A stretch of 57,280 bases of DNA, taken from sequence record PP627281.1; one strand, written 5' to 3'. The translations under genes and the position numbers were made by a program. This document shows, piece by piece, positions 23,376 to 46,479 of the stretch. The notes below the pieces were generated by a model. The model had not been told where the DNA came from. It made no database searches and saw only the letters and a list, made by a program, of their open reading frames with translations. This DNA comes from Escherichia phage KS_W4. How positions within the stretch are numbered: the first letter of the stretch is position 1; the number at the start of each line of letters is the position of its first letter.

Positions 23376-23400
23376 TTTGCATCTCCTCTTGTTGTATGCA

Positions 23401-23429
23401 TATATTAAAACAGACCCGCGAAGGGTCTG
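23401..23429 (-). terminator. rho-independent terminator after DNA polymerase gene
   Basis: On the minus strand: CAGACCC-TTCGC-GGGTCTG followed by TTTTAATAT. Confidence 0.6.
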
Positions 23430-23439
23430 CAAGTAGAAT

Positions 23440-25425
23440 TTAGGCATATCCCATGTCTTCGAGATACTTCTCTGCTTTAGCTATATAAGCATCATAATCT
23501 ATGTCGTCCGGTATTTTATCCGGTAGCGTCATGATTGGGACACCTCCCGCGCTACCAGCTACACGGTTGCCCGAGTTAGCATAGATTATTTCGGGAGTTT
23601 CTTCATTGGTGCTTAAATACCAGCGTACAACCTTACCCAAAAATTCGCCATTCCATACCGCGCCACCTTTCACCGCACGTAGGATAATGAATTTTCTAAT
23701 ATCGTTGCAATTGCGTATAGTACGAGAAACAGGCGTACCGTGGGCCAAACATTCACATACAGCTTCCATAATAATTTCACCAGTACAGTTCTTTTGAAGC
23801 CCTGTTTTCGCGAACCAGCCTTTACGTTTAATTTCAACATTTCCTTCCTCATCAGGTTCTTTTACTGCAACATAGTTATTGACGTTAGCACTGTACAGCT
23901 TGTCATAGTAGTTGGATTCCATTTCAAAGCCTGTCACAGACTCCCACCACTTGATCATGTCATCAACGAAGTCCTGCATGTGGTCAGGATACTTAACCAC
24001 AATACCATCCGTGTTAGCTGAAATTACTTTAACACCGTTCAGCTCAAACGCTTCAATGAGCATTAACAGCGATAGCTGTCCGGTGATAGTTACCTGTATC
24101 AATAATTGCGGCGCGTACAATACAGACCACATTGAACCCAATTTACCGAACGATCCGTTGATTACGATCTTCAGCGTATTGGCTGTGTTCTTGTCCCCTG
24201 AGTGCTTGGCCGCAATACGACGGTCTACAATGCTTTTATAAACACGAAGAAACGCTGGTCCCAACTGCTCAGGGTATAAGCCCTGATTAAGAATAATTGA
24301 AGGGTAATAGGACGTTACGTCAATGTCCCGCTTCTTAATACCTGGCTCTTTACCGTGACCAGCACACTCTTCGGAGCTATGCAAACCGCCAATACCCATA
24401 CGGTAGACACCGTCCGCAATCTTGATCTCAAGACCTGTTAACGCTGGAGGCAAGCTAACGCCACCGTTATCGCTAACAACAAAACGGCAGTCCCGAACAA
24501 TATCCAAAACACTATTCATCAGAGGTGTTTGAAAACGAATAAAGTCCGGTATGTTATATGCATACTTAGTTCCAGGATAAACTTGGGGACGCTGGGGGCG
24601 CACACCAGTTAACGCTTGAATTTCGTGTTTAATTACGTCTTCGGCAATCTGCGCATCAGAACGTGAACGCAGATCCACACCGTATTCTTGCGACATAATT
24701 TCACGAAGGTGCAAAGGCTCTTGCAATGCAATAAAACATTCTTCCGTCTGTACAAGGTCGTTAATACAGTACCAGCGTACAATTAACATCTGGTCCTGCG
24801 TCAACATTGTATTTGGCTTAAATGGTAAATCCTGCATACGGCGAGTATGTACACGTCCGCCATATTGTTTCAAACCACCAGATCCAGGCAGAACTTCCAT
24901 AATATCAATGTGGTTAACGTTCTGCATACGCTTAAGGCGGTAACTCTTCAACACATCGGAAGGACGCCAATCTTCCACGATTATCTTATCGGTTGCGTCT
25001 TTAAGCTGCGCATTAGAACAGCCGTTAAGCGCAAGCGTAGCAATGGGCATATCGTACCCGTTACCGTTAAAGCTTACGATAAGGAAGTTTGTCATTACCC
25101 AGTTAAGTAACAAGCAATTTAAACTACAACCGTGATACATTTCGAAGTAGACAACTTTCTTAGTTCGCACTCCGCGAAATGCAATTAAGAAATAGTTTGG
25201 ATAACATTCAATATCGTACACAAGCGGTTCGCGGTTAATCCATGCTTGAATAAGTTCGTCCTGCGTATACAGGTTGTATTGGAAGTTCCGCGCTTCTTCA
25301 AGGTTAGGCAGATAATCCGGGCGCTCCCAAGTGCGCTCCGGCGGTAAACGTTTAACCTTTTCTTTCTTTGCTTTTGGCTCAGGCGGTAAGTCCTGCCAAA
25401 AGAAACCAATAGCATCTGTCCGCAT
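23440..25425 (-). CDS. DNA polymerase, family B
   Basis: 661 aa from ATG 25425; exonuclease motifs YDIECY and FNGNGYD; polymerase motifs DVTSYYPSII (A), KIVINGSFGK (B), NTDG (C). Confidence 0.8.
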   Translation of the reverse strand: MRTDAIGFFWQDLPPEPKAKKEKVKRLPPERTWERPDYLPNLEEARNFQYNLYTQDELIQAWINREPLVYDIECYPNYFLIAFRGVRTKKVVYFEMYHGCSLNCLLLNWVMTNFLIVSFNGNGYDMPIATLALNGCSNAQLKDATDKIIVEDWRPSDVLKSYRLKRMQNVNHIDIMEVLPGSGGLKQYGGRVHTRRMQDLPFKPNTMLTQDQMLIVRWYCINDLVQTEECFIALQEPLHLREIMSQEYGVDLRSRSDAQIAEDVIKHEIQALTGVRPQRPQVYPGTKYAYNIPDFIRFQTPLMNSVLDIVRDCRFVVSDNGGVSLPPALTGLEIKIADGVYRMGIGGLHSSEECAGHGKEPGIKKRDIDVTSYYPSIILNQGLYPEQLGPAFLRVYKSIVDRRIAAKHSGDKNTANTLKIVINGSFGKLGSMWSVLYAPQLLIQVTITGQLSLLMLIEAFELNGVKVISANTDGIVVKYPDHMQDFVDDMIKWWESVTGFEMESNYYDKLYSANVNNYVAVKEPDEEGNVEIKRKGWFAKTGLQKNCTGEIIMEAVCECLAHGTPVSRTIRNCNDIRKFIILRAVKGGAVWNGEFLGKVVRWYLSTNEETPEIIYANSGNRVAGSAGGVPIMTLPDKIPDDIDYDAYIAKAEKYLEDMGYA

Positions 25426-26378
25426 TAGACACGTTCTCCAATTAATACACCGCGAAGATTTTCCCCAAAGAATGCGCAAGGTTGCGGATACAAACTAAAG
25501 TCCGCAGTCTTAACCACATTTTCAAGCAATAGCAGGATATCAATATTGTACACTCCCGTAATTGTCCGGTCCTGCAATACGAAGCTTGCACCTTCTGCAT
25601 CGTCGTAATGAGTACGGGCTAGACCGTTTTCAATATATACGCGAGGACGGTCTTCTGCAAACGGTTTAATTTTATGCAAGCCCTCAAATAGACCTGGATC
25701 AACAGGATGCGCATTGCATTGAACATTTAAAATACGACGTATATCTGGCCACTCCGCATCAATAAGCTGTGTCCGCAACCAGCGACCTTCCGGATAATGA
25801 AACGTCACATTGTTCTTGCTAACCTGAATATGTGTAGGGTTAGCTTTAATGCGCAATATTTCTTTGATAGCAACAGACGGTATTATGCAGTCTATAGGGA
25901 ACTGATTGCCAAACCAGTATTCCGCAATAGTCACGTTATTTGTAGCAAACAGGCTACCGTTATTAATCAGGATACCGCAAGCCCACGGACGGGAAGCATC
26001 GGAGCCTACAAACGGAGCAACGGACTTCACACCATGTACGAAGCGAGCACCGTCTATTTCATACAGATCCCCTTCAGGGGATACATGCGGAGTTTCTTTA
26101 TCGATGCAGCGTATAGCAACACGAAACGGGCCTGACTTGATATTCAGCTTACCGTTAGCCATCATTGTTAGCTGCACTGTTTCATCACAGTTTGAAATAG
26201 CTTTAATCATTGGACCAGCTTCAGGCTTGCAATCAATATCCAGCTCAATGGGGCTGCCCAGTGCAATAACACCGTTAAAGCCTTGTACCTGCCCGTCACG
26301 AATAAGAAAACTGGTAAGCCCTTCTACCAGTTCCTTTTTAGCGACGGAGCCTTGAACAAATTTAAGAGCGTCTAACAT
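25425..26378 (-). CDS. sliding clamp-like protein (beta-clamp fold, putative)
   Basis: 317 aa; three-part repeat architecture and sequence pattern reminiscent of DnaN-type clamps; translationally coupled to the polymerase gene. By-eye inference only. Confidence 0.4.
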   Translation of the reverse strand: MLDALKFVQGSVAKKELVEGLTSFLIRDGQVQGFNGVIALGSPIELDIDCKPEAGPMIKAISNCDETVQLTMMANGKLNIKSGPFRVAIRCIDKETPHVSPEGDLYEIDGARFVHGVKSVAPFVGSDASRPWACGILINNGSLFATNNVTIAEYWFGNQFPIDCIIPSVAIKEILRIKANPTHIQVSKNNVTFHYPEGRWLRTQLIDAEWPDIRRILNVQCNAHPVDPGLFEGLHKIKPFAEDRPRVYIENGLARTHYDDAEGASFVLQDRTITGVYNIDILLLLENVVKTADFSLYPQPCAFFGENLRGVLIGERV

Positions 26379-26605
26379 TAGCGATCCTCGATTGCTCTAA
26401 TTGTGGTTAAATCTAATTCACAGGTTGGAGGGTATCCATAAAGTCCCATTTGTTTTCCTTGTGCATTAAACCATGTGCCTGACGGATCCTGCCACTGCTT
26501 AGGTGTCTTGTGGAGAAATACTACTCTGTTTTCACCGTAATAATTAATTCTTACGCCTGTGTGAGTATATTTACGTTTACCTTTTGGTCTTCTTAAGTTA
26601 GCCAT
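26378..26605 (-). CDS. hypothetical protein
   Basis: 75-aa ORF coupled between the DpdA and clamp-like genes. Confidence 0.4.
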   Translation of the reverse strand: MANLRRPKGKRKYTHTGVRINYYGENRVVFLHKTPKQWQDPSGTWFNAQGKQMGLYGYPPTCELDLTTIRAIEDR

Positions 26606-27525
26606 CAGAACAACTCCATTACACGATCACGGAATGTGCCGTCATGGGTGGCGTTAATGTTTGCAGCAATTACACCATACGCCCATAAGTTGAAAGCAGC
26701 ACGTGATTCATAGATTGTTGACAAACGTTCGTAAGTGAAACCGTTTTGCTCAAGGTATTTAAGGACAGCGTCTTGTTCAATTTCAGTTAATGTTGAAACA
26801 TGCTTACCAAAATGATGGCGGTCCGGTGACTTATCTGATACGCGCATTGGTCCCCACGGAGGAGTAACTACACTTCCAAACGCTGCCGCTTGAATCCAGG
26901 AGGATGAGTCACAGCTATACCACGGGTAACGTTCCATAATGGTAGTGGACGTAATACCAAATGCATGAAGCTTAATCTTAGGACGACCGCTACCATCGCA
27001 AATATATTTGTCCCACATACGATCAAGCCAAGTTTTAAGTGTGTCCGTTGAACGCCCTACCATGCCACCAATCGTGATATATTCGTAGTTCTTCATGTAA
27101 TATTCAAGATAGCGGAAGTCTTCACCGAAGTGAAAGCAGGGTAACGGTTTGGCGCCTCGTGCTTCCATTTCAAGCTGGTTACGGTATGTCTGCAACGGAT
27201 CACCGATGCCATCGAGCACCGACGCCATTACTGCACCATCTTCTACGCGAAGGATGTCTTTGTTGCGCTTAATGTATTCGCAGTATTCAACAATATCAAT
27301 GTGAGCACCCAAAGAGTGCGCGGAGAATGCACCGGAGTCGAGAAACACTTTAGCCCCGTCCGCACGCATTTGATCAACATACTTCTGACGCCCAACGTAG
27401 TGGTACGATTCCAAAATATGGGGCAGGTTGCGAGTGATATTTTTCTCATGCTCGGATAGCTTTTCGTAACGCTGCTGTCCAGGCATATATCCGTTCGTGT
27501 AAACTGCTGCCATAAAAACGTTCAT
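26605..27525 (-). CDS. dpdA: DpdA-like DNA-guanine transglycosylase (TGT family)
   Basis: 306 aa; GGAGGA RBS; FLDSGAF motif and TGT-like length; adjacent to the preQ0 synthesis genes. Confidence 0.65.
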   Translation of the reverse strand: MNVFMAAVYTNGYMPGQQRYEKLSEHEKNITRNLPHILESYHYVGRQKYVDQMRADGAKVFLDSGAFSAHSLGAHIDIVEYCEYIKRNKDILRVEDGAVMASVLDGIGDPLQTYRNQLEMEARGAKPLPCFHFGEDFRYLEYYMKNYEYITIGGMVGRSTDTLKTWLDRMWDKYICDGSGRPKIKLHAFGITSTTIMERYPWYSCDSSSWIQAAAFGSVVTPPWGPMRVSDKSPDRHHFGKHVSTLTEIEQDAVLKYLEQNGFTYERLSTIYESRAAFNLWAYGVIAANINATHDGTFRDRVMELF

Positions 27526-27799: not shown

Positions 27800-28408
27800 T
27801 TATTTACAAGCTTCAAGGAACTCCCGGCGCCATTCTTTACCAATATTGCTACCATGCTCCAGTTCTGTAGCGCCCCGGAACGCTTTGGTAATAGTAGAGC
27901 TGCCACATACCTGCTTAACCCCGCGCGATTCCATGCACATATGCTTAGCATCGATATAAACACATACAGCTTTCGGATTTAGGTGCTCCTGGATAGCGTC
28001 TGCAATCTGGTTAGTTAGACGCTCTTGCACTTGCAAGCGACGGCTAAAAGCATCAACCACGCGAGACAGTTTACTGAGCCCCACAATGCGACCGTTAGGA
28101 ACATACCCCACGACAGCGCGACCGATAATAGGGGCCATATGGTGTTCACAATGACTGTAAACAGGAATATCACGAACAATAACCATTTCATTAGTATCTT
28201 CCGCCCCGTCCTCAAAGGTCTTAAACAGACCAGCAATATCTACATCGTAACCGCCGAACCATGTAGCATAAGCTTTTGCTACACGCTCCGGAGTTTCCTC
28301 CAGCCCTGGGCGCAGAACCGCGCTAACTTCAATTTGAGATAGTAAAGTACGCACAGCGTTAGCAATACGGAATTGAACACCTTCACTATTAATACTATAT
28401 TTAGACAT
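27800..28408 (-). CDS. folE: GTP cyclohydrolase I
   Basis: about 202 aa from ATG 28408 (AAGGAAA RBS); conserved CEHHMAPI segment typical of FolE. Confidence 0.75.
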   Translation of the reverse strand: MSKYSINSEGVQFRIANAVRTLLSQIEVSAVLRPGLEETPERVAKAYATWFGGYDVDIAGLFKTFEDGAEDTNEMVIVRDIPVYSHCEHHMAPIIGRAVVGYVPNGRIVGLSKLSRVVDAFSRRLQVQERLTNQIADAIQEHLNPKAVCVYIDAKHMCMESRGVKQVCGSSTITKAFRGATELEHGSNIGKEWRREFLEACK

Positions 28409-28442
28409 GGTTTGCAGTTTCCTTGTTGTTAATGTGGTCATA

Positions 28443-28979
28443 TTACAGGCTATAGTTTACGTGACATTTCGAAGTTTCTTCGATGGTGCATTCTACAAGT
28501 TGAACACCATGTTCGTCAAGCAGTTGCGGCCCAATTACTTCAACCATGTACGCAGCCAGATTTTCAGCAGTAGGATTGAACGGTAAAGACACCAGTGAAT
28601 CGTTAAAAGCTTTAAGATCTTCATCCCCTTCACCGAAAGTAGGCCAACCGCGTTCAGATTGAGTATCCGTTTCAATACAACATTGCAGTCCGTTGATCAA
28701 CATATCCTTTTCCCAATGTAGAAACTTATGATCCCAGTTATCTTCTAGCCACTGGCAGAGCGTAGTTTTAACCACACTAAAGTCAATCACGCGCCCAACG
28801 CTGTCCAGACCGTCCTCAATCAGCTTTCCTCGTGTCACTACTTTTCCGCATCCATGCTTCGGAGCAACCTTAAAGTGAAACTTATAGTTGTGACCGTGGA
28901 GGTGGCGACATTTGCTTTCGTGACCTACAACACGATGTCCGGCGCAAATTTCATGTGAACGAATTACTGTATAGCTCAT
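28443..28979 (-). CDS. queD: 6-carboxy-5,6,7,8-tetrahydropterin synthase
   Basis: 178 aa; CxxxHGH-type signature (CAGHRVVGHESKCRHLHGHNY). Confidence 0.7.
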   Translation of the reverse strand: MSYTVIRSHEICAGHRVVGHESKCRHLHGHNYKFHFKVAPKHGCGKVVTRGKLIEDGLDSVGRVIDFSVVKTTLCQWLEDNWDHKFLHWEKDMLINGLQCCIETDTQSERGWPTFGEGDEDLKAFNDSLVSLPFNPTAENLAAYMVEVIGPQLLDEHGVQLVECTIEETSKCHVNYSL

Positions 28980-29566
28980 TTTAATACCTCTTTAGACTGT
29001 TCAATTTCTAATGCACGCTGTGCGGATGCAATAATATCTTTCAAGTCTTCTACCAGACTTTTATGACCGCGTTCGCCCGGCTGCAACGCCTTTTTAATTA
29101 AATGTTGTAAAGCTGGGTTAGTTGTTTTCCAAGCTTCCAAGACATCATACACGTCCACGATGCATTTTACAACATTGCCGTTTTGATCTTTACCATAAAT
29201 AATTTTCTGATATTTATTCATGGGAATTTTAGATGGTTCATATTTGGTAAAAACTGCACCATTAAATGTATTACTTATGCTTATTCCAGAAGAAGGTTGA
29301 TGGTACACTCCGGAGCGAGTGTTTTCGCTGGCTTGTTTGACGTAATCATCCGCAACGATATATCGCCAGGCTATAATATCTTGAACTTTATAAGGGCTAT
29401 TTTCATCCATAGCTGAACGCCCTTCTATAGCCCAATCCCATCCATGTAATAGATTCTTAACGTGTGTGCCGTTGCGCAAACGAACTTCAAACTTTTCATT
29501 GCGAAGAAAGATTGGCATTCCTTTCCCATCGTGCTGGTGCCAAATTTTATTAAGATTATCTTTCAT
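28976..29566 (-). CDS. hypothetical protein within the 7-deazaguanine cluster
   Basis: about 196 aa from ATG 29566 (track starts at TTG 29605); no motif recognised. Confidence 0.45.
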   Translation of the reverse strand: MKDNLNKIWHQHDGKGMPIFLRNEKFEVRLRNGTHVKNLLHGWDWAIEGRSAMDENSPYKVQDIIAWRYIVADDYVKQASENTRSGVYHQPSSGISISNTFNGAVFTKYEPSKIPMNKYQKIIYGKDQNGNVVKCIVDVYDVLEAWKTTNPALQHLIKKALQPGERGHKSLVEDLKDIIASAQRALEIEQSKEVLK

Positions 29567-29567
29567 T

Positions 29568-30047
29568 TTACGCTCTCGCTGTACGTGATTGAACTTCGTA
29601 AACAATCCAAAGGATAGCGGATGCTGTGAACTTACTTAAGCTCATTGCTACCATTGATCCCGGATTAACAATACCTATAATACTTAAGAACACAATGGAG
29701 TCAATCGGTACAGCTACCAAAGAGCTAATAAATACACGTTGATGAAACGGCTTCTTAGTAATCGTGTATACCGCATAGTCCGCAAACTCGCTAAGAGCAA
29801 AGGATGCAACGGATGCAACTACAACAGCAGGATCCCCAAATACCCAGCTAAGGATGCAACCAACAATCATTGCAGGGATAACGCCTTTACCAGCGTTACG
29901 CTGTGCGTAGTCACGCAACACAAAGATAATACCTACAAAGAAAGCCATCATGGGGACTACGCCAAGAGGCGTGTTAAGCATCGGAAGGTAGGAAAAGCCA
30001 AGGTTTACGAATGTAATTGCAGCCAGATAAGCAACGATAAATTTCAT
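29568..30047 (-). CDS. YhhQ/DUF165-like membrane protein (putative queuosine-precursor transporter)
   Basis: about 159 aa from ATG 30047 (GGAGAA RBS); six hydrophobic segments; pattern resembles YhhQ-family transporters. Confidence 0.45.
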   Translation of the reverse strand: MKFIVAYLAAITFVNLGFSYLPMLNTPLGVVPMMAFFVGIIFVLRDYAQRNAGKGVIPAMIVGCILSWVFGDPAVVVASVASFALSEFADYAVYTITKKPFHQRVFISSLVAVPIDSIVFLSIIGIVNPGSMVAMSLSKFTASAILWIVYEVQSRTARA

Positions 30048-30167
30048 ACTTTTGTTCTCCAGTTTTAACAGCGTTATTCGCTGGTTGTTGGGTTTAAAAG
30101 CTTTAGTAGTATAGTTGGGTCCCCGCACCCTAAACAATGCGCTAGCGGTGCGGTTTTCGCGGTAAGA

Positions 30168-30875
30168 TCAAGCTTTGCTAATAAATTCGCTGTACCCTTT
30201 AGCACGCAGTTTGCACGCAGGACATTCACCGCAACCATATCCCCAGTCATGCAGAGTGCGACGGACGCCGTTATAACACGTATGGGACTGCTCAATTACT
30301 GTGGTTAAGAAACCAACCTTATCCGCCAGCTCAAACGTTTCAGCTTTATTTAAACGCATAAGCGGAGTAACAAAATGGATATCTGTTTCATATCCAACGT
30401 TTAATGTAGCTTCAAGCAGGTCTACAAACTGCTGGCGGCAATCCGGATAACCGCTATAGTCTGTTTCACAAACGCCTGTAACCACATATCGGGCTCCAAC
30501 CTTCTGCGCGTAGGCGTGAGCGGTAGTCAGAAAAAGCGCATTACGGTTTGGCACAAAGCTTGCCGGAAGGTTGTTGTGCTGTTCGTGATGTTCGTTAACA
30601 TCACCTTCGTTCCCGATTAAAGCACTATTGCCAATCTGTTTTAAAGCAGGTAATTCAAAGACAACAAATGGGACATCGTGCTCTTTACAAATTTGATTAG
30701 CACAAGCCAGCTCAATGTTATGACGTTGACCGTATGCAAAACCAATAGCGTAGACCTTATCATAGTTATTAAGGGCAAGACCCAAACAGGTCACGCTGTC
30801 CTGGCCGCCAGACAGGACGACAACGGCGGAGTTATGATTTTTTACAGGGAATACCAGTTTATCTAATTTATTCAT
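30168..30875 (-). CDS. queC: 7-cyano-7-deazaguanine synthase
   Basis: about 235 aa from ATG 30875; PP-loop SGGQDS motif; C-terminal Cys cluster (CGECPAC). Confidence 0.8.
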   Translation of the reverse strand: MNKLDKLVFPVKNHNSAVVVLSGGQDSVTCLGLALNNYDKVYAIGFAYGQRHNIELACANQICKEHDVPFVVFELPALKQIGNSALIGNEGDVNEHHEQHNNLPASFVPNRNALFLTTAHAYAQKVGARYVVTGVCETDYSGYPDCRQQFVDLLEATLNVGYETDIHFVTPLMRLNKAETFELADKVGFLTTVIEQSHTCYNGVRRTLHDWGYGCGECPACKLRAKGYSEFISKA

Positions 30876-30876
30876 T

Positions 30877-31065
30877 TTAGAACCCTTTAAGGCTAATATT
30901 AAGATTAACGACCACTTGTTCAACTACATCATCAGATGTCATCTGACGCTTATGAATTTCAAGCTCCGAATGTATGTTCTTGGATGCAGCACGACAGATA
31001 GCGTCATTCAGCTCGTCTTGTAAACGTTGCATCTTCTGCATAAGAATTACAGTTTCTTCATTCAT
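30877..31065 (-). CDS. hypothetical small protein
   Basis: 62-aa ORF; appears paralogous to the next upstream 70-aa ORF. Confidence 0.35.
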   Translation of the reverse strand: MNEETVILMQKMQRLQDELNDAICRAASKNIHSELEIHKRQMTSDDVVEQVVVNLNISLKGF

Positions 31066-31270
31066 CTTCTACACCTTTAATATCACAAGGGTTGATTGTT
31101 ACGTTTGACATCACAATCGGATGATTGCGTGCTCCGATTGTACTAACGTGGTTAATATCTAATTCAACATGCACACCCTGCATAGTAGCGTGAGCAATTG
31201 CAGAATTAAGTTTTTCTACCAGCTCAGTGATCATTTCCTGATGCTGTTTCGCTTCTTCCAAAGTGATCAT
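31058..31270 (-). CDS. hypothetical small protein
   Basis: 70-aa ORF in the que cluster. Confidence 0.35.
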   Translation of the reverse strand: MITLEEAKQHQEMITELVEKLNSAIAHATMQGVHVELDINHVSTIGARNHPIVMSNVTINPCDIKGVEDE

Positions 31271-31525
31271 TTAAACCTCCGTTAATGTTTGAGTCCAGTC
31301 TAAGCCTTCAAGGTCTACATCAGCTATTTCATCGTACTCGTAAGCTCCCGGATCTGCTGGCAGCCATCTATCAAATCGATGGCTGAGTTCTGGAGGAATT
31401 GCTTCATACCCCCAAACCTTCCCATCCTTGTCGGCTGCCAGATAATCAACTCGACTTGGAACGGTTAAAGTGACACCACAAAAATTAACATCTTTAGTAT
31501 GCACAACCTGACTTAATACACGCAT
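31271..31525 (-). CDS. hypothetical protein (VDLEGxDW family)
   Basis: 84 aa; C-terminal ADVDLEGLDWTQTLTEV shared with the ORF at 52069-52374. Confidence 0.45.
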   Translation of the reverse strand: MRVLSQVVHTKDVNFCGVTLTVPSRVDYLAADKDGKVWGYEAIPPELSHRFDRWLPADPGAYEYDEIADVDLEGLDWTQTLTEV

Positions 31526-32232
31526 TATTCCACCCCGATATATTTGTGAACCTGAAGCTGCAACGTGTACCCGTGTTTCATACAGCTTTTGACAACCGCT
31601 TGGATGTTACTGTGGTTAAGATCTTCATCCTGCTCGTCCATTGGCTGTAAATATATCTTACCCTTGAACCCCTTCGGAGGTCTAGCGATAAATGGCGTAG
31701 CTTGATGATCTAATGCCTGAAGCGGTAAACCGTCTTCCACGTTTACACAGCACGCTTTAAGCACATATTTAAATGCGTTTGCTCGGTACAGCACAGTAGG
31801 ATGAATTTTTGAAGTCTTAGGACTGCATACAATGACAGGCAGCTGGGAAAAGTTCTTAGGTAAAGGCATAGACCCATTCGTTTCAATTTGTACAAGATAC
31901 CCGCGCGATAAGAGTTGTTCGACAAACGGGTTAATTTGCTGACGGAACGGTTCACCCCCAGTAATAACCACAAGTGAGGTGCTATTGCCTGATTCCAGCT
32001 TACGGCTTTCGATTAAACGCATGATATCAACAATGTGATAAAGAGAACGACCTACAGTATAGTCAGTATCACAGCCCGGACATTGCAGGTTACACCCAGC
32101 AAGTCGCACAAATACAGCAGGTTGGCCGCAGAATGGCCCTTCACCCTGAATGGTAGAGAATACCGAATGCACGTCTAAATACATATCGTTTTCTTTAGAA
32201 CGAGACTCGGGAGCTTGTTGATTAATATTCAT
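31525..32232 (-). CDS. queE: 7-carboxy-7-deazaguanine synthase (radical SAM)
   Basis: 235 aa; CNLQCPGC (Cx3Cx2C-type) cluster; GGEP motif; RBS AGAGGA. Confidence 0.75.
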   Translation of the reverse strand: MNINQQAPESRSKENDMYLDVHSVFSTIQGEGPFCGQPAVFVRLAGCNLQCPGCDTDYTVGRSLYHIVDIMRLIESRKLESGNSTSLVVITGGEPFRQQINPFVEQLLSRGYLVQIETNGSMPLPKNFSQLPVIVCSPKTSKIHPTVLYRANAFKYVLKACCVNVEDGLPLQALDHQATPFIARPPKGFKGKIYLQPMDEQDEDLNHSNIQAVVKSCMKHGYTLQLQVHKYIGVE

Positions 32233-33786: not shown

Positions 33787-35769
33787 TTAGAACGGAACGT
33801 AATCTGGATCATCTACTTGTACAGGATTAACCACATTGTTCACTGTTATACCTTGCGTATTCTGCGAAACAATATCATCCCAGCTCACATCATCGTTATA
33901 GCTCGGACCTTCGGTTGTTCCATCTTGCCCGTATACTTTAACTTGAATAGCTTCGTCGTCCTGTGGAGCTTCAAACTTACCGAAACACGTACCATCATAA
34001 TCATAGTTCAATATCTCAGGCCATTTCTTATTGGTATGAACTTTGATGTATTTCGGTGTTTTAAGCATTGCAGCAACATCAAGAGCTTCTTCAATAGTTT
34101 GTGGTAAAGGAAGATGCGTCCTTTTCTTCCACCATGCAACCGCTTTACGACCTGCCCAGTCACCATGAAGCAGAGCTACCCATTCGCTGAATATTTTACT
34201 ACCGCAATAATAAGTCACCTTCATTGTTGGTGGTTTAGAGCTGTCATTGCGTTTAGTGTGCTTCGCATAAGTAACATGCGTAACTTTAAAGTCTTCAACT
34301 ACAGGAATGTCCTGCTTGATCAATGCTTCGGTACTTGCTGCCTTTTTAAGTTTCGTTTGGAACTTAAACTCATGACCGCAAAATCCTTCTTTAACATAAT
34401 CCGTTCCACGTAGTCTAAATCCCTTCAAATATAATTGTTGAACTTGTTCCTGTGTAACGCTGTCCATAGGAATTGGTGCAAAGCCACCACAATAGCGAGC
34501 AGATGCATGATTATACGACCCGCACACATCGCATTCTTTAACCGGAGCAGTACCAGCACCTTTTTCGCCCGGGCGCTTGGGTTTAACAGGGTCGTTAATA
34601 GGGCCCAAACGACGCGTATTACCGCTGAAATCCAGTACAAGGCAGTTCTGCTTAGGGCTTGCTGCAATAGCTTGCAAGCGGCCTTCCTGCGTGGAAAGAT
34701 CAAAGCCCTCCGCATATACCGGACGCGTACCGCGACCCAACATCTGAACCCATAGCACCGCCGAGGCAGTTGGGCGAAGCATGATAATCAGATCAAGCAT
34801 TGGATGGTCGAAACCTGTGGTTAAGACGTTGTTATTTGTCAGCGCTCGAAACTCTCCACGCTTGAACTTTTCAATAATCTCGTCACGCTCTTTTGCATCG
34901 AGCTTTGAGTGAATACATCCGCAACTAATACCCATATCGTTCAGCATATCGCACGCATCTTTAGCGTGTTCAATACCAGAACAAAATATAAGCCAACTTT
35001 GACGGTCTTCACCACATTCAATGGCTTCCTCAAGTGCTCGGAGTGTTGCGTCGTCGCGGTTCACCGCACTTTGCAGCTCACTCTGGATAAACTCACCGCC
35101 GCGTTTCCCTACCCCGTTGAGGTCCAGTTCCATCTTTGTACGCTTTGGCACAACCGGAAGTAAATAACCTTGCTCCAGGAACCAGTTAAAGGCTTCAGGG
35201 GTAGTTGCATCAAACGTTACTTTATCAAATAAAGCATCATCGTCTTCGTTTTCCTTAACAATTGAGCCGTAACCCAGTCGGTAAGGTGTAGCGGTAAGAC
35301 CGATGATTTTTAAATACGGGTTAACTTCACGCAATGCTGCAAAGAACTTCTTATACATTGTTGCATCACGCGGACTAATAAGGTGCGCTTCATCCACAAA
35401 GATTAGATCAACCTTGCCAAACTTTTTAGGATGCTTAGCAACAGATGCAATCCCCGCAAATGTGATAAGATTATAAACTTCTTTACGCTTCAAACCTGCG
35501 CTGTAAATACCTGCTGGCGCTTCCGGCCAGACTTTCATTAATTTATCATAGTTTTGTGCAATTAACTCTTTGACGTGAGTTAACATCATTACGCGCTGGT
35601 TTGGATACCATTTATAAAGCAGATCGAGGAACCCAGCGATAACGAGCGATTTTCCTGTCCCTGTTGGTAACAGGATCAAAGGGTTCCCCGCGTTACCCTT
35701 TTCAGCATCAAAATAGCGGAATACGCTATAAACTGCTTCCTGTTGATAATCGCGGAGCTGCATAATCAA
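33787..35769 (-). CDS. SF2 DNA helicase (DEAH-type)
   Basis: 660 aa; Walker A LPTGTGKS; Walker B/DEAH in LIFVDEAHLI; C-terminal Cys-rich segment. Confidence 0.75.
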   Translation of the reverse strand: MIMQLRDYQQEAVYSVFRYFDAEKGNAGNPLILLPTGTGKSLVIAGFLDLLYKWYPNQRVMMLTHVKELIAQNYDKLMKVWPEAPAGIYSAGLKRKEVYNLITFAGIASVAKHPKKFGKVDLIFVDEAHLISPRDATMYKKFFAALREVNPYLKIIGLTATPYRLGYGSIVKENEDDDALFDKVTFDATTPEAFNWFLEQGYLLPVVPKRTKMELDLNGVGKRGGEFIQSELQSAVNRDDATLRALEEAIECGEDRQSWLIFCSGIEHAKDACDMLNDMGISCGCIHSKLDAKERDEIIEKFKRGEFRALTNNNVLTTGFDHPMLDLIIMLRPTASAVLWVQMLGRGTRPVYAEGFDLSTQEGRLQAIAASPKQNCLVLDFSGNTRRLGPINDPVKPKRPGEKGAGTAPVKECDVCGSYNHASARYCGGFAPIPMDSVTQEQVQQLYLKGFRLRGTDYVKEGFCGHEFKFQTKLKKAASTEALIKQDIPVVEDFKVTHVTYAKHTKRNDSSKPPTMKVTYYCGSKIFSEWVALLHGDWAGRKAVAWWKKRTHLPLPQTIEEALDVAAMLKTPKYIKVHTNKKWPEILNYDYDGTCFGKFEAPQDDEAIQVKVYGQDGTTEGPSYNDDVSWDDIVSQNTQGITVNNVVNPVQVDDPDYVPF

Positions 35770-44118: not shown

Positions 44119-44148
44119 ATAAAGGGCCGAAAGGCCCTTTATTTATTT
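44119..44148. terminator. bidirectional rho-independent terminator
   Basis: AAAGGGCC-GAAA-GGCCCTTT followed by ATTTATTTG. Confidence 0.7.
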
Positions 44149-46479
44149 GCTTAAGTCTTTGAAAACACTCTCAATTGACTCGTCTATATACCATCCCAAC
44201 CCCCTGAAATTACGCTTCAATGCATCCTCACGCGTAACCGGAACAAGCGCGCCCATGTCTACAAGTTGTTTGATAGTCAGGTCTGTCGCAGTACCTGCCC
44301 CCATCCTGTGATTCTTGAATGCTGCTAACCCGTAGGTTCTGCGTGTGATAGTTGCCTTCGGAATAATACCGTCAACTCGCAGCTCCTTACGATCACATGC
44401 AATTTTACCGCCAAGATAATCTTTGCAGACCTGGCAAATAGCCTTCACGCGCGTTTCATCATCACCGCCAATAGTACCTTTTTCCCATGCGTTGATCATG
44501 ATGTCTTGCCCATGCGTGACAAAATCTACCGCCCATTGCATGTGATTGGGCTGAACGACAGGATTGATCCAGTTTTCCCCCACTGCTAACAGGGAAGCAA
44601 GACGCAGAGCTTTAAGGTGCGCACGGTTCCACGGCTGACGGATAGCTTCGTCTTTTGTTGCGTTAATGTGTTCATCGCACAACAAGTTAAACTCCCGCTC
44701 GATCCTTGCAGCTTCAGGGCTTAACTGGACGGTAACGGTCTGGAACTTTGCCATTGTCACTAACGTGTGGTTAACAAGATGGCACACCATGTCCTTTAAT
44801 TGCTGTGGCATTGTAATTTCAGGATTCTCGTTTGCAGGAACACGATCCCCTTCATATTGCACAATGTGGAAACGGGACAAGAAACCGTCTTCCATCATTT
44901 CACGTGTTAACGCTTCAAAGAATGTGTCCGGTGTTGTTTCGCCCAAAATGCTGAACGCTACCCCTTCCATCGTTTTGGTATTATTAGCCTTATCAGAATA
45001 TCCGATACCGCCAACAACATCCATCGCACCAGATTTTTGATACACATCTGTAATAGTTTGCTTCAAGGTGTAGTTCGCAGTGCCTGGCTGAGCTGTCGCC
45101 ATACCTTTAATGGTTTTACCAAACTCACCGTTAATATTCACAAACGAAGTATGATCCGCAAAACTTTTACGCAAGGCAGGACCGGAAGCATAGTTAGTCA
45201 TGTCTACAAATTCATGCACTTGCGGCAATTGCTCGCCTACCTGCTTACAAATATAGCTGGGCCCAGCGTGAAGCATTTCTTTACCCACACCTGATCGGGC
45301 AATGAGCACAAAGTAACCGTTCAGCCCTGTGTTGGTGATAGTATTCCATACCTTACCGCATACACCTGACAAGAATGCTAACGATGCAGTGATTGCAATT
45401 TCTTTCACCGGACGCTGCGATGCTTTGTAGATATACTTCGCAAGCTCACCAGCAAGTCCCGGCGGCCATTCAATAGCTGTTGCATCAATGGACGTGCTTT
45501 CTGCAACTACTATTTCACCGGACGGGCTGACTGTGGTTACAGGCATTTCCGTTACCTGCTGCATTGCACTGTGTGCGGCTTGCATACGGGCAGCGTAATC
45601 CCGCGCCAGTGCCGCTACGTTTTCCTGGGCAATGCGTTCACGCTCCATACGACCGCGGCACATGCGCAAACAACGGTCAATATGAACATTGTTCTTATTA
45701 GCCTTCTCACGTTTGCCCAGTGCGCTGTAACGGAACAGACGACGACATTGCTCATTACTTTCTGTGTAGAATGCATACATAGAAATAAGAGCAAGATCTG
45801 CTTCAGACTGGGAAGGGAATCCCATTTCAACCCATTCGCCATTGAATAGGCGTGCATACTTATCCCCGTTGTCCGCTTCAAGTGCGCGCTGGTGAATAGT
45901 TGCATCGTCTTCTACCGGATCTTTTTCTACCAGTTCAATTTCATATGTCTTGCGCTGAAGATCAATTTCATTCACAAGCATAGTAAGGTAATGATCACGT
46001 TCTGCAACTGGTTTGTTATAGACAGGATTACCCGTGCAGATAATAAAACGCTCCTGACTATAAACCTCGACACCATCACGTCGACGTCCTTTGCCGATGT
46101 TTCCTCTTAACCACAGGTGGACGCCCAAGCCTGAGCGACTTACTTCGGTGTAAGTATCGAACGCGGTCATGATCTGTTCAAAGCGGCGCAACTGTTCCGG
46201 CGTCGTGTGCTTCTTGGGATCAGGTTCATTGGTTGCGTTCTTCACATCCAGGTCGATGCAGGTGAACGGGTCTTGCGCAGTAAGCACGAAGCCGATGTAA
46301 GGTTTATTGAAATGAGCGGCGCAACCTTTGGCAGCTTCAAACGTCATTAGCATATCCGGATCGGTAACGTCCGCAGCCATCAAACGTCCAATATCGTTAT
46401 CCCATACAAGCGGCTTTTTATCAGCATCGGCGATCGCCCATTGTGGGAAAGCTTTAATTTCAGCGGGAAACAGTTCCAT
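44143..46479 (-). CDS. primase-polymerase (AEP-type) / helicase replication protein
   Basis: 778 aa; N-terminal AEP-like motifs (CIDLDVKN; SRSGLGVHLW); central P-loop-like ARSGVGKE; large size typical of primase-helicase fusions. Confidence 0.55.
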   Translation of the reverse strand: MELFPAEIKAFPQWAIADADKKPLVWDNDIGRLMAADVTDPDMLMTFEAAKGCAAHFNKPYIGFVLTAQDPFTCIDLDVKNATNEPDPKKHTTPEQLRRFEQIMTAFDTYTEVSRSGLGVHLWLRGNIGKGRRRDGVEVYSQERFIICTGNPVYNKPVAERDHYLTMLVNEIDLQRKTYEIELVEKDPVEDDATIHQRALEADNGDKYARLFNGEWVEMGFPSQSEADLALISMYAFYTESNEQCRRLFRYSALGKREKANKNNVHIDRCLRMCRGRMERERIAQENVAALARDYAARMQAAHSAMQQVTEMPVTTVSPSGEIVVAESTSIDATAIEWPPGLAGELAKYIYKASQRPVKEIAITASLAFLSGVCGKVWNTITNTGLNGYFVLIARSGVGKEMLHAGPSYICKQVGEQLPQVHEFVDMTNYASGPALRKSFADHTSFVNINGEFGKTIKGMATAQPGTANYTLKQTITDVYQKSGAMDVVGGIGYSDKANNTKTMEGVAFSILGETTPDTFFEALTREMMEDGFLSRFHIVQYEGDRVPANENPEITMPQQLKDMVCHLVNHTLVTMAKFQTVTVQLSPEAARIEREFNLLCDEHINATKDEAIRQPWNRAHLKALRLASLLAVGENWINPVVQPNHMQWAVDFVTHGQDIMINAWEKGTIGGDDETRVKAICQVCKDYLGGKIACDRKELRVDGIIPKATITRRTYGLAAFKNHRMGAGTATDLTIKQLVDMGALVPVTREDALKRNFRGLGWYIDESIESVFKDLSK

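What the first reader, a model, noticed from the sequence alone, without database searches (positions are those of the whole stretch)
23440..26378. Family B DNA polymerase translationally coupled to a clamp-like protein
The polymerase (exo and pol motifs present) starts at an ATG overlapping the stop of a 317-aa ORF whose three-part pattern resembles beta-clamp proteins. A phage-encoded clamp paired with a PolB is uncommon in small siphophages and would imply an autonomous processive replisome.
Basis: inference. Interest (0 to 1): 0.4.

Follow-up and report, generated by a model that had tools for sequence, protein, structure and literature searches.

The report
Phage beta-clamp coupled to its polymerase
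This E. coli phage encodes its own bacterial-type sliding clamp directly upstream of its family B DNA polymerase; close relatives already carry this annotation, but short conserved end motifs suggest the clamp tethers both the polymerase and the phage's DNA-modifying enzyme.

Summary
On the minus strand, a 317-aa ORF (25425-26378) ends in TAA, which overlaps by one base the ATG of a 661-aa polymerase (23440-25425).

The window is a Seuratvirus, a CAjan-like E. coli siphophage. Relatives at 94-97% identity already annotate the pair as "DNA polymerase" plus "DNA polymerase beta subunit / processivity factor".

AlphaFold2 gives a confident three-domain model of the 317-aa protein (pLDDT 93.6). 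Its 50 best PDB matches are all bacterial DnaN beta clamps (TM 0.78-0.84, about 15% identity). The polymerase has intact exonuclease and polymerase motifs and a family B fold.

The clamp is not rare: 363 phage genome records and about 2,900 protein clusters hold a relative. The replisome is not autonomous, because I found no clamp loader.

Two things I did not find in the literature searched:
- The polymerase starts with an invariant motif (R-x-D-A-I-G-F-F-W-x-D) that is predicted disordered. The same motif heads family A polymerases that replace PolB next to the same clamp.
- The upstream gene DpdA ends in Q-E-L-F wherever a phage clamp is nearby, and lacks that tail where a ParB-like gene is its neighbour.

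Both motifs resemble clamp-binding motifs. Binding has not been tested.

The parts
25425..26378 (-). 317-aa phage beta-type sliding clamp (DnaN-like, three domains)
   Evidence: PHROG 947 'DNA polymerase processivity factor' E 4e-82. Pfam DNA_pol3_beta_2 reaches only 22.2 bits, below the 27-bit cutoff. hhalign against E. coli DnaN gives probability 85%, E 6e-6, over 276 columns. AF2 pLDDT 93.6, pTM 0.87. The Foldseek PDB top 50 are all DnaN, TMq 0.78-0.84.
23440..25425 (-). 661-aa family B DNA polymerase with 3'-5' exonuclease domain
   Evidence: PHROG 1252 E 1e-228. Exo I/II and Pol A/B/C motifs are invariant. AF2 pLDDT 90.8. The Foldseek top hits are archaeal PolB, E. coli Pol II and Pol alpha, probability 1.0.
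25390..25422 (-). Codons 2-12 of the polymerase, R-T-D-A-I-G-F-F-W-Q-D: a conserved, predicted-disordered N-terminal motif and candidate clamp-binding motif
   Evidence: G7, F9, W10 and D12 are invariant, R2 and D4 nearly so, in 36 homologues at 54-92% identity. The motif is present in 75 of 77 neighbouring polymerases. Residues 1-14 have pLDDT below 50. The same motif heads family A polymerases next to the same clamp family.
25306..25389 (-). Pro/Lys-rich linker (residues 13 to about 40) between the N-terminal motif and the folded polymerase
   Evidence: The sequence is LPPEPKAKKEKVKRLPPERTWERPDYLP. Mean pLDDT for residues 11-20 is 48 and for 21-30 is 76.
25423..25439 (-). Clamp-to-polymerase junction: GGAG (25439-25436), stop TAA (25427-25425) overlapping ATG (25425-25423)
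   Evidence: Read directly from the sequence. Overlap or abutment is conserved in 52 of 75 related loci.
26378..26605 (-). 75-aa basic ORF (pI 9.9) between DpdA and the clamp, overlapping both neighbours by 1 nt; specific to this lineage
   Evidence: PHROG 38388, unknown function. Found in only 3 of 80 related loci. Junctions are TGATG and TAATG.
26605..27525 (-). DpdA, the 7-deazaguanine DNA transglycosylase; first gene of the overlapping chain DpdA, 75-aa ORF, clamp, PolB
   Evidence: PHROG 887 E 2e-96. Annotated as DpdA in phage VogelGryff.
26608..26622 (-). Last five codons of DpdA (V-M-E-L-F-stop): candidate C-terminal clamp-binding tail
   Evidence: The tail consensus is R-[VIL]-Q-[ED]-L-F. 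L is present in 75 of 75 and F in 72 of 75 DpdA genes that lie upstream of a clamp. The tail is absent from DpdA genes with a ParB-like neighbour. Only 2 of 144 window ORFs end in this way.
23400..23430 (-). Terminator-like hairpin plus T-run 10 nt after the polymerase stop codon; probable end of the operon
   Evidence: GCAGACCC-TTCGC-GGGTCTGT followed by TTTAATATAT, a consensus scan hit only.

Best explanation
The 317-aa protein is a phage-encoded, bacterial-type (DnaN-like) sliding clamp. It is made from the same mRNA as the phage's family B replicative polymerase and, through stop/start overlaps, in step with it.

The most likely mechanism is as follows. The clamp forms a ring on primed phage DNA. 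The polymerase is tethered to the clamp's conserved protein-binding pocket by its flexible N-terminal peptide (D-A-I-G-F-F-W), which sits on a Pro/Lys-rich linker. That tether makes the polymerase processive.

The phage encodes no clamp loader, so loading most likely uses the host DnaX (gamma/tau) complex.

Shown here: the gene structure, the clamp fold, the family B fold and catalytic motifs, the conservation and predicted disorder of the N-terminal motif, and its co-occurrence with the clamp across two polymerase families.

Inferred: ring dimerisation, peptide-pocket binding, processivity, and the loading route.
For: - Clamp fold. Profile match to E. coli DnaN.
- Overall acidic pI of 5.56 (family median 5.55), like E. 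coli beta at 5.25 and unlike basic proteins that bind DNA directly.
- Family B fold and motifs.
- Gene order of clamp then polymerase on one strand in 77 of 80 related viral loci; two of the three misses are contig ends. Overlap or abutment in 52 of 75.
- The N-terminal motif is the most conserved stretch outside the catalytic motifs yet has pLDDT below 50 in the monomer model. That combination is typical of a short linear binding motif.
- x-[ILV]-G-[FLM]-F resembles the bacterial clamp-binding consensus QL[SD]LF; E. coli Pol II has QLGLF (established knowledge).
- Most telling: in IMG/VR locus L069 and in Synechococcus phage Ssp-JY38 the gene after an A1-family clamp is a family A polymerase (Pfam DNA_pol_A 9e-59 and 6e-71). 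Both start with the same motif, MRADSVGLFWED and MPRWDNVGLFWQD. The motif therefore follows the clamp, not the polymerase fold.
- More distant clamp-polymerase pairs carry similar [LF]F motifs at one or both ends. Kakheti25 pol ends ..ALSFF. RcSpartan pol ends ..SASLF. AbSZ3 pol starts MSLFD and ends ..SSLFD. The PolA of Rosemountvirus SD350 starts MSFLFD.
- Columns mapped onto the E. coli peptide pocket are more conserved than average: 0.80 against 0.65, reached by 217 of 20,000 random column sets.
Against: - No interaction was tested.
- The oligomeric state is unknown. The protein is 49 aa shorter than E. coli beta, and hhalign places a 9-residue gap near the E. coli dimer-interface residues I272/L273 (that part of the alignment is uncertain).
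- Pfam does not reach its gathering score for either protein.
- No clamp loader was found. Whether a host loader can open a clamp at about 15% identity is unknown.
- These phages share a whole replication module, so the N-terminal motif could bind another conserved partner such as the helicase, the primase or an SSB-like protein.
- The pocket mapping rests on a weak alignment plus my own anchoring of the C-terminus.
Confidence: 0.72

Rival explanations
1. The protein is a loader-independent processivity subunit. It has a clamp fold but does not form a topologically closed, loaded ring. Instead it binds the polymerase one-to-one and holds duplex DNA directly, as herpesvirus UL42/UL44 or PhiKZ Rhc do.
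For: No clamp loader is found in the window or in relatives. Tight translational coupling suggests a stoichiometric complex. PhiKZ shows that phages use clamp-derived single subunits (PMC13648687). Distant relatives (Kakheti25, RcSpartan, Halfdan, AbSZ3) have Lys/Arg-rich N-terminal extensions on the clamp that could bind DNA directly. A possible deletion lies near the dimer interface of E. coli beta.
Against: All three beta-clamp domains are present and align over the full length with ring-forming DnaN. The overall pI is acidic (5.56), as in ring clamps. The window's clamp has no basic extension. The tether is a short flexible motif, not an extensive folded interface.
Confidence: 0.18
2. The clamp serves mainly as a platform for DNA modification or for host takeover, not as the polymerase's processivity factor. 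It might carry DpdA along new DNA, or titrate host clamp-binding proteins.
For: The DpdA gene lies directly upstream in 79 of 80 loci, and DpdA has a conserved clamp-motif-like tail. DpdA-clamp synteny is also seen in records for phages of Gram-positive hosts.
Against: Many phages have the clamp-polymerase pair and no DpdA in the stretch examined: Kakheti25, RcSpartan, Halfdan, AbSZ3, SD350. The polymerase, not DpdA, is the constant neighbour. 9g DpdA modifies plasmid DNA in E. coli without the phage clamp (PMC6884629). A role as a DpdA platform is compatible with the best explanation and does not replace it.
Confidence: 0.07
3. The conserved N-terminal motif of the polymerase is not a clamp-binding motif. 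It docks onto another replisome protein, such as the SF2 helicase, the prim-pol/D5-like helicase or a DUF669 SSB-like protein, or onto the host beta clamp.
For: The whole replication module is conserved across these phages, so co-occurrence with the clamp is not unique. The motif has A or S, not the canonical Q, at its first position, and W-x-D follows it.
Against: The clamp is the immediate, translationally coupled neighbour. The motif resembles known clamp-binding peptides. Motif-like [LF]F ends appear on polymerases of both families specifically next to clamp relatives.
Confidence: 0.2

Closest known systems
Annotated orthologues in Queuovirinae and related siphophages (CAjan, 9g, Seurat, VogelGryff, PaMx25; PHROG 947 + PHROG 1252)
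   Same: Same genes, same order and same overlap at 94-97% nucleotide identity. Already labelled 'DNA polymerase' plus 'DNA polymerase beta subunit', 'processivity factor' or 'replicative clamp'.
   Different: Nothing material. In the paper library searched, these annotations appear only in genome descriptions; I found no biochemical or structural study.
E. coli beta clamp (DnaN) with Pol II (family B) and the DnaX clamp loader
   Same: A three-domain beta-type clamp paired with a family B polymerase. The polymerase is tethered by a short hydrophobic motif (Pol II: C-terminal QLGLF). The pocket-forming segments are recognisable: DASRPW, ATNN, WPD and the C-terminal G-M-R.
   Different: About 15% identity; 317 aa against 366 aa. 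Pfam's gathering score is not reached. The candidate motif is N-terminal and reads A-I-G-F-F-W. No cognate loader is encoded.
T4/RB69 gp43 polymerase, gp45 clamp and gp44/62 loader
   Same: A phage-encoded family B polymerase that uses a phage-encoded clamp through a terminal peptide motif.
   Different: gp45 is a two-domain, trimeric PCNA-type clamp, and T4 encodes its own loader. Here the clamp is the bacterial three-domain type and no loader is encoded.
Loader-independent clamp-fold processivity factors: HSV UL42, CMV UL44, PhiKZ Rhc (PMC13648687)
   Same: Viral clamp-fold subunits that work with a family B polymerase without a dedicated loader.
   Different: Those factors bind DNA through a basic face, or together with the polymerase thumb, as monomers or open dimers. 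Here the full beta architecture and an acidic pI point to a ring. The oligomeric state was not tested.
Bacterial Dpd system DpdA-DpdB, and eukaryotic DNMT1-PCNA
   Same: A DNA-modifying enzyme that depends on, or is tethered to, a DNA-encircling or DNA-sliding partner. DpdB is a ParB-like ATPase required by bacterial DpdA (PMC10164549). Phage DpdA genes lie next to either a ParB-like gene or a clamp gene.
   Different: No DpdA-clamp link appears in the literature searched. Here it is only inferred from a conserved C-terminal Q-E-L-F tail and from synteny.

Membership tests
Bacterial beta sliding clamp (DnaN) | Three tandem clamp domains, each with two helices packed on beta sheets | tested here: met
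   The AF2 model (pLDDT 93.6) has six helices and three repeats. It aligns over its full length with about 50 DnaN structures at TMq 0.78-0.84, E about 1e-20.
Bacterial beta sliding clamp (DnaN) | Sequence membership: Pfam DNA_pol3_beta, _beta_2 and _beta_3 at gathering score | tested here: not met
   Only DNA_pol3_beta_2 matches, at 22.2 bits against a 27-bit cutoff. PDB phmmer gives E 0.01. The profile-profile comparison is positive: probability 85%, E 6e-6. The protein is therefore a divergent subfamily.
Bacterial beta sliding clamp (DnaN) | Head-to-tail homodimer forming a closed ring around DNA | not testable with these tools
   Only single-chain prediction was available. The acidic pI is consistent with a ring but does not prove one.
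Bacterial beta sliding clamp (DnaN) | Conserved hydrophobic partner-binding pocket between domains II and III, closed by the C-terminus | tested here: inconclusive
   Columns aligned to E. coli R152, Y154, T172-L177, P242, R246, V247 and the C-terminal PMR are mostly invariant in the phage family. Their mean conservation is 0.80 against 0.65 overall, reached by 217 of 20,000 random sets. The mapping rests on a weak alignment.
Bacterial beta sliding clamp (DnaN) | Loaded by an AAA+ clamp loader | not testable with these tools
   No loader-like gene is found in the window or in relatives. Use of the host loader is an inference.
Family B DNA polymerase | Exo I/II/III and Pol motifs A (DxxSLYPS), B (Kx3NSxYG) and C (DTD) with catalytic aspartates | tested here: met
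   D71/E73, N222/D223, D369-VTSYYPS, K419-IVINGSFG and N471-T-D473-G are invariant in 36 homologues. Motif C reads NTD rather than DTD; the aspartate at the second D position of the consensus (D473) is retained. Exo III was not clearly identified.
Family B DNA polymerase | [quoted passage not shown] | tested here: met
   AF2 pLDDT 90.8. The Foldseek top 50 are all family B polymerases at probability 1.0. TM is only about 0.35-0.48, as expected when the relative positions of domains differ.
Family B DNA polymerase | Pfam DNA_pol_B / DNA_pol_B_exo1 at gathering score | tested here: not met
   Only DNA_pol_B_exo2 matches, at 14.5 bits against a 24-bit cutoff. The PHROG 1252 match is overwhelming. 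The protein is a divergent phage clade.
Beta-clamp-binding motif (QL[SD]LF type) on the polymerase | Short terminal or loop peptide with the consensus Q-L-x-L-F, disordered when unbound, that binds the clamp pocket | tested here: inconclusive
   The A-I-G-F-F motif at residues 5-9 is invariant and disordered. It is shared by PolA and PolB next to the same clamp.
Loader-independent viral processivity factors (UL42 / Rhc type) | A monomer or open dimer that binds DNA through a basic surface | tested here: inconclusive
   The pI is 5.56 and the window protein has no basic extension. Some distant relatives do have K/R-rich N-terminal extensions. The oligomeric state was not tested.

The most novel reading that the evidence does not exclude
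The phage beta clamp is a hub that couples DNA hypermodification to replication.

The 7-deazaguanine transglycosylase DpdA is encoded at the head of the same overlapping gene chain. It would ride on the clamp through its conserved C-terminal R-[VIL]-Q-[ED]-L-F tail. In this role the clamp would replace the ParB-like ATPase (DpdB type) that clamp-less DpdA systems have as a neighbour.

The polymerase uses a portable N-terminal G-[FLM]-F-W motif that has been carried over between family B and family A polymerases.

SSB-tip mimics (DDDIPF) occur on the helicase, or in other lineages on the clamp itself. They may recruit the host clamp loader through its chi subunit.
Probability: 0.35. Interest if true: 0.7.

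Novelty: already known. Interest (0 to 1): 0.3.

Why it matters
The gene pair itself is ordinary. It is an annotated feature of a well-sampled phage group, and it shows that bacterial-type clamps are common accessories of small siphophage polymerases.

What could matter is the pattern of short end motifs around the clamp.
- It gives a directly testable model of how a minimal phage replisome with no loader is put together.
- It shows that a polymerase of a different family can be swapped in while the same docking peptide is kept.
- It suggests how 7-deazaguanine replacement of up to a quarter or more of the G residues could be made efficient, by tethering DpdA to the clamp behind the fork. That would be a bacterial-virus counterpart of the PCNA-tethered DNA methyltransferase.

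Tried and rejected
- Single-sequence searches were too weak to decide the fold. Pfam matches for both proteins fall below the cutoffs, and PDB phmmer gives E 0.01 for the clamp and 9e-5 for the polymerase. Structure prediction was needed.
- I built 33 paired fusion constructs (PolB residues 1-30, linker, clamp, linker, DpdA tail) to test peptide docking with AF2. Binding therefore remains untested.
- The search for a phage clamp loader was negative. A Pfam scan of ten replication-region proteins found an SF2 helicase, DUF669, a Sak4-like AAA_24 protein and a prim-pol/DUF3987 protein, but nothing like gamma, delta or RFC. The PHROG-based annotation of phage KS_A8 lists none.
- Literature searches for an experimental study of this clamp or polymerase, or for any DpdA-clamp link, found only genome announcements and unrelated work.
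- A phi29-like protein-primed PolB is not favoured. The best fold matches are polymerases that extend nucleic-acid primers, and the phage encodes a prim-pol/helicase. Terminal-protein features were not specifically sought.
- The 75-aa ORF between DpdA and the clamp is not a conserved part of the system; it occurs in 3 of 80 loci.
- The 'DnaN' of phage Dp-1 and the 'Pol III beta' of phage Flasso could not be confirmed by sequence from the partial proteins fetched. Those two data points rest on the record annotation.
Full report
**What is there**

All genes in this part of the window are on the minus strand. A 317-aa ORF occupies 25425..26378. The next ORF runs down to 23440. The ORF listing extends that second ORF to a TTG at 25479. 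Homologues and every annotated relative instead begin at the ATG at 25425-25423, giving 661 aa.

The junction is ggagaacgtgtcTAATGcgg. The TAA stop of the first gene shares its last A with the ATG of the second, and a GGAG lies 10 nt upstream. The stated coordinates and the overlap are therefore correct.

**Where the window comes from**

The 4.6-kb stretch is 94-97% identical to about 34 Escherichia phages of the genus Seuratvirus (Queuovirinae: CAjan, Seurat, KS_A8, VogelGryff and others). In those records the two genes are already annotated as 'DNA polymerase' and as 'DNA polymerase beta subunit' or 'DNA polymerase processivity factor'.

**The 317-aa protein is a beta-type clamp**

- Sequence evidence alone is weak. 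Pfam DNA_pol3_beta_2 scores 22.2 bits, below its 27-bit cutoff. PDB phmmer gives E 0.01 against E. coli beta.
- It matches PHROG 947 (processivity factor) at E 4e-82. A profile of 43 family members aligns to E. coli DnaN over 276 columns with probability 85%, E 6e-6.
- AlphaFold2 with that alignment gives a confident model (pLDDT 93.6, pTM 0.87) with three repeats of two helices plus sheets.
- The 50 best Foldseek matches in the PDB are all bacterial DnaN clamps. They align over the full length at TM 0.78-0.84, E about 1e-20 and 14-17% identity.
- The protein is acidic (pI 5.56; family median 5.55), like E. coli beta at 5.25.

**The 661-aa protein is a family B polymerase**

- It matches PHROG 1252 at E 1e-228.
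- In 36 homologues at 54-92% identity the following are invariant: Exo I (D71, E73), Exo II (N222, D223), motif A (D369-VTSYYPS), motif B (K419-IVINGSFG), motif C (N471-T-D473-G) and a K-x-K-G motif.
- The AF2 model (pLDDT 90.8) matches archaeal PolB, E. coli Pol II and Pol alpha at probability 1.0.

**How common is the pair, and is the coupling conserved?**

- A tblastn search with the clamp finds 363 of 50,697 phage records. They include Pseudomonas, Escherichia, Salmonella, Stenotrophomonas, Vibrio, Xanthomonas and Rhizobium phages, many with 42-60 kb genomes. They are usually annotated as replicative clamp or Pol III beta.
- A profile search of 1.84 billion representative proteins finds 2,933 clusters at E <= 1e-3 and 870 at E <= 1e-30.
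- I fetched 80 related viral contigs. In 77 of them a polymerase of this family follows the clamp on the same strand. Two of the three exceptions are contig ends.
- The stop and start overlap or abut (ATGA or TAATG) in 52 of 75. The rest have spacers of 50-1,224 nt.

**No clamp loader**

The window covers nearly the whole genome. Its replication genes are an SF2 helicase, a Cas4-like exonuclease, DUF669, a Sak4-like AAA_24 protein, a ligase, an RNase H and a prim-pol/DUF3987 helicase. Nothing resembles the gamma, delta or RFC subunits. 'Autonomous replisome' is therefore not supported. Either the host DnaX complex loads the clamp, or loading does not depend on a loader.

**A candidate tether on the polymerase**

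- The first 12 residues of the polymerase, M-R-T-D-A-I-G-F-F-W-Q-D, are among its most conserved: G7, F9, W10 and D12 are invariant. The consensus over 75 loci is R-x-D-[AS]-[ILV]-G-[FLM]-F-W-x-D.
- A Pro/Lys-rich linker follows. Residues 1-14 have pLDDT below 50 in an otherwise confident model. Invariant but disordered is the signature of a short linear binding motif.
- [ILV]-G-[FLM]-F resembles the bacterial clamp-binding consensus QL[SD]LF; E. coli Pol II has QLGLF (established knowledge).
- The strongest comparative evidence comes from locus L069 and Synechococcus phage Ssp-JY38. There, the gene after a clamp of this same family (E 1e-104 for Ssp-JY38) is a family A polymerase (Pfam DNA_pol_A 9e-59 and 6e-71). 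Both start with MRADSVGLFWED or MPRWDNVGLFWQD. The motif therefore stays with the clamp when the polymerase family is exchanged.
- More distant pairs show related [LF]F ends. Kakheti25 PolB ends ..ALSFF. RcSpartan PolB ends ..SASLF. AbSZ3 PolB starts MSLFD and ends ..SSLFD. Rosemountvirus SD350 PolA starts MSFLFD.
- Columns of the clamp that map onto the E. coli peptide pocket are more conserved than average: 0.80 against 0.65, reached by 217 of 20,000 random sets. The mapping is approximate.
- Binding itself was not tested.

**Upstream genes**

- DpdA (26605..27525), a 75-aa ORF (26378..26605), the clamp and PolB form a chain of 1-nt stop/start overlaps, each with a GGAG-like site upstream. 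The chain ends at a terminator-like hairpin just after the polymerase stop.
- The 75-aa ORF is lineage-specific, found in 3 of 80 loci.
- A DpdA homologue lies upstream of the clamp in 79 of 80 loci. DpdA ends in R-[VIL]-Q-[ED]-L-F, with L in 75 of 75 and F in 72 of 75. In the window the tail is VMELF, and only 2 of 144 window ORFs end in this way.
- DpdA genes further afield that have a clamp gene nearby also end in L-F or L-L-G. Achromobacter phage ART ends QMELLG, Ssp-JY38 PVLF and V07 IQGLF. Dp-1 ends QRRLF and Flasso QGKLF, but the clamps of those two rest on record annotation only.
- DpdA genes whose neighbour is a ParB-like gene have unrelated C-termini: Rosebush, phiSM, Hilltopfarm, Knocker and Mufasa8. 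Megan, which has no annotated ParB-like or clamp neighbour, also has unrelated C-termini.
- Bacterial DpdA needs the ParB-like ATPase DpdB (PMC10164549).
- The hypothesis follows that in clamp-encoding phages DpdA is tethered to the clamp. Against an absolute requirement, 9g DpdA plus Gat-QueC modify plasmid DNA in E. coli without the phage clamp (PMC6884629). The samples are also not phylogenetically independent.
- I found no paper linking DpdA to a clamp.

**Verdict**

The clamp interpretation is supported. The claims of rarity and autonomy are not.

The feature is already known at the level of annotation, and I found no experimental study of it. The best explanation is a beta-type ring clamp that gives the co-translated PolB its processivity through an N-terminal docking peptide and is probably loaded by the host loader (confidence about 0.7). 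The main rival is a loader-independent subunit of the UL42 or Rhc type (about 0.2).

The most novel reading still open is the clamp as a hub that also carries DpdA, with SSB-tip mimics recruiting host factors.

Noticed in passing
window 26608-26622 (-), end of DpdA (26605..27525); loci L003-L082, L084-L095: DpdA ends in a conserved R-[VIL]-Q-[ED]-L-F tail wherever a phage clamp gene is nearby. The tail is absent where the neighbour is a ParB-like gene, as in mycobacteriophages, Cellulophaga phage phiSM and Arthrobacter phage Mufasa8. This suggests tethering of DpdA to the clamp. I found no report of it in the literature searched.
   Followed up: partly
window 33787..35769 (-), SF2 helicase; loci L003-L082: The helicase ends in DDPDYVPF. 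All 47 full-length homologues in related loci end in acidic-[IV]-P-F, most of them exactly DFDDDIPF, which is the E. coli SSB C-terminal tip. The tip may recruit host SSB-binding proteins such as chi of the clamp loader. Alternatively it may couple helicase to polymerase, as the T7 gp4 tail does.
   Followed up: partly
L096:3863-5005 (Kakheti25 clamp), L097:3845-5074 (RcSpartan clamp), L098:3408-3638 (Halfdan gp53): In these distant relatives the helicase is about 110 aa shorter and lacks the SSB-like tip. Instead the clamp itself carries it (..YEDDIPF..DPDDEIPF) together with a Lys/Arg-rich N-terminal extension. In Halfdan a 76-aa ORF between helicase and clamp ends ..HDFDIPF. The tip appears to move between replisome proteins.
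   Followed up: partly
L069:11650-13698; L088:5892-7889 (Synechococcus phage Ssp-JY38); L099:4897-6864 (Escherichia phage SD350): Family A polymerases occupy the slot after the clamp in place of PolB. In L069 and Ssp-JY38 they keep the same N-terminal GLFW motif and a similar linker (PIPETGW..P..FPN). This is an exchange of polymerase family with the docking peptide retained.
   Followed up: partly
window 26378..26605 (-): A 75-aa basic ORF (pI 9.9, PHROG 38388, unknown function) is inserted between DpdA and the clamp and overlaps both by 1 nt. It is present only in the Seuratvirus lineage, in 3 of 80 related loci.
   Followed up: partly
window 27800..32232 (-): A complete 7-deazaguanine (preQ0) pathway lies upstream of DpdA, by homology to the annotated phage VogelGryff: FolE, QueD, a YhhQ-like transporter, QueC and QueE. 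This fits the dPreQ0-modified DNA known for CAjan-like phages.
   Followed up: no
window 44143..46479 (-): A 778-aa protein combines an NrS-1-like prim-pol helix-bundle domain with a DUF3987 (D5-like helicase) region. It is the probable primase-helicase of this replisome.
   Followed up: no
loci with 350-1224 nt between clamp and polymerase (for example L010, L019, L028, L052, L053): In about a third of related loci the clamp-polymerase overlap is interrupted by a spacer large enough for an inserted gene, possibly a homing endonuclease. The content of these spacers was not examined.
   Followed up: no
P0268 (497 aa): In this representative protein the clamp occupies residues 175-496, behind an N-terminal extension of about 174 aa. 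It may be a fusion.
   Followed up: no
L094 (MT135025.1 'Vibrio phage V07', 349 kb, flagged UNVERIFIED_ORG): This record, labelled Schizotequatrovirus, contains a Queuovirinae-type DpdA-clamp-PolB module (clamp E 1e-133, pol E 3e-265). It is probably a chimeric or mixed assembly.
   Followed up: no
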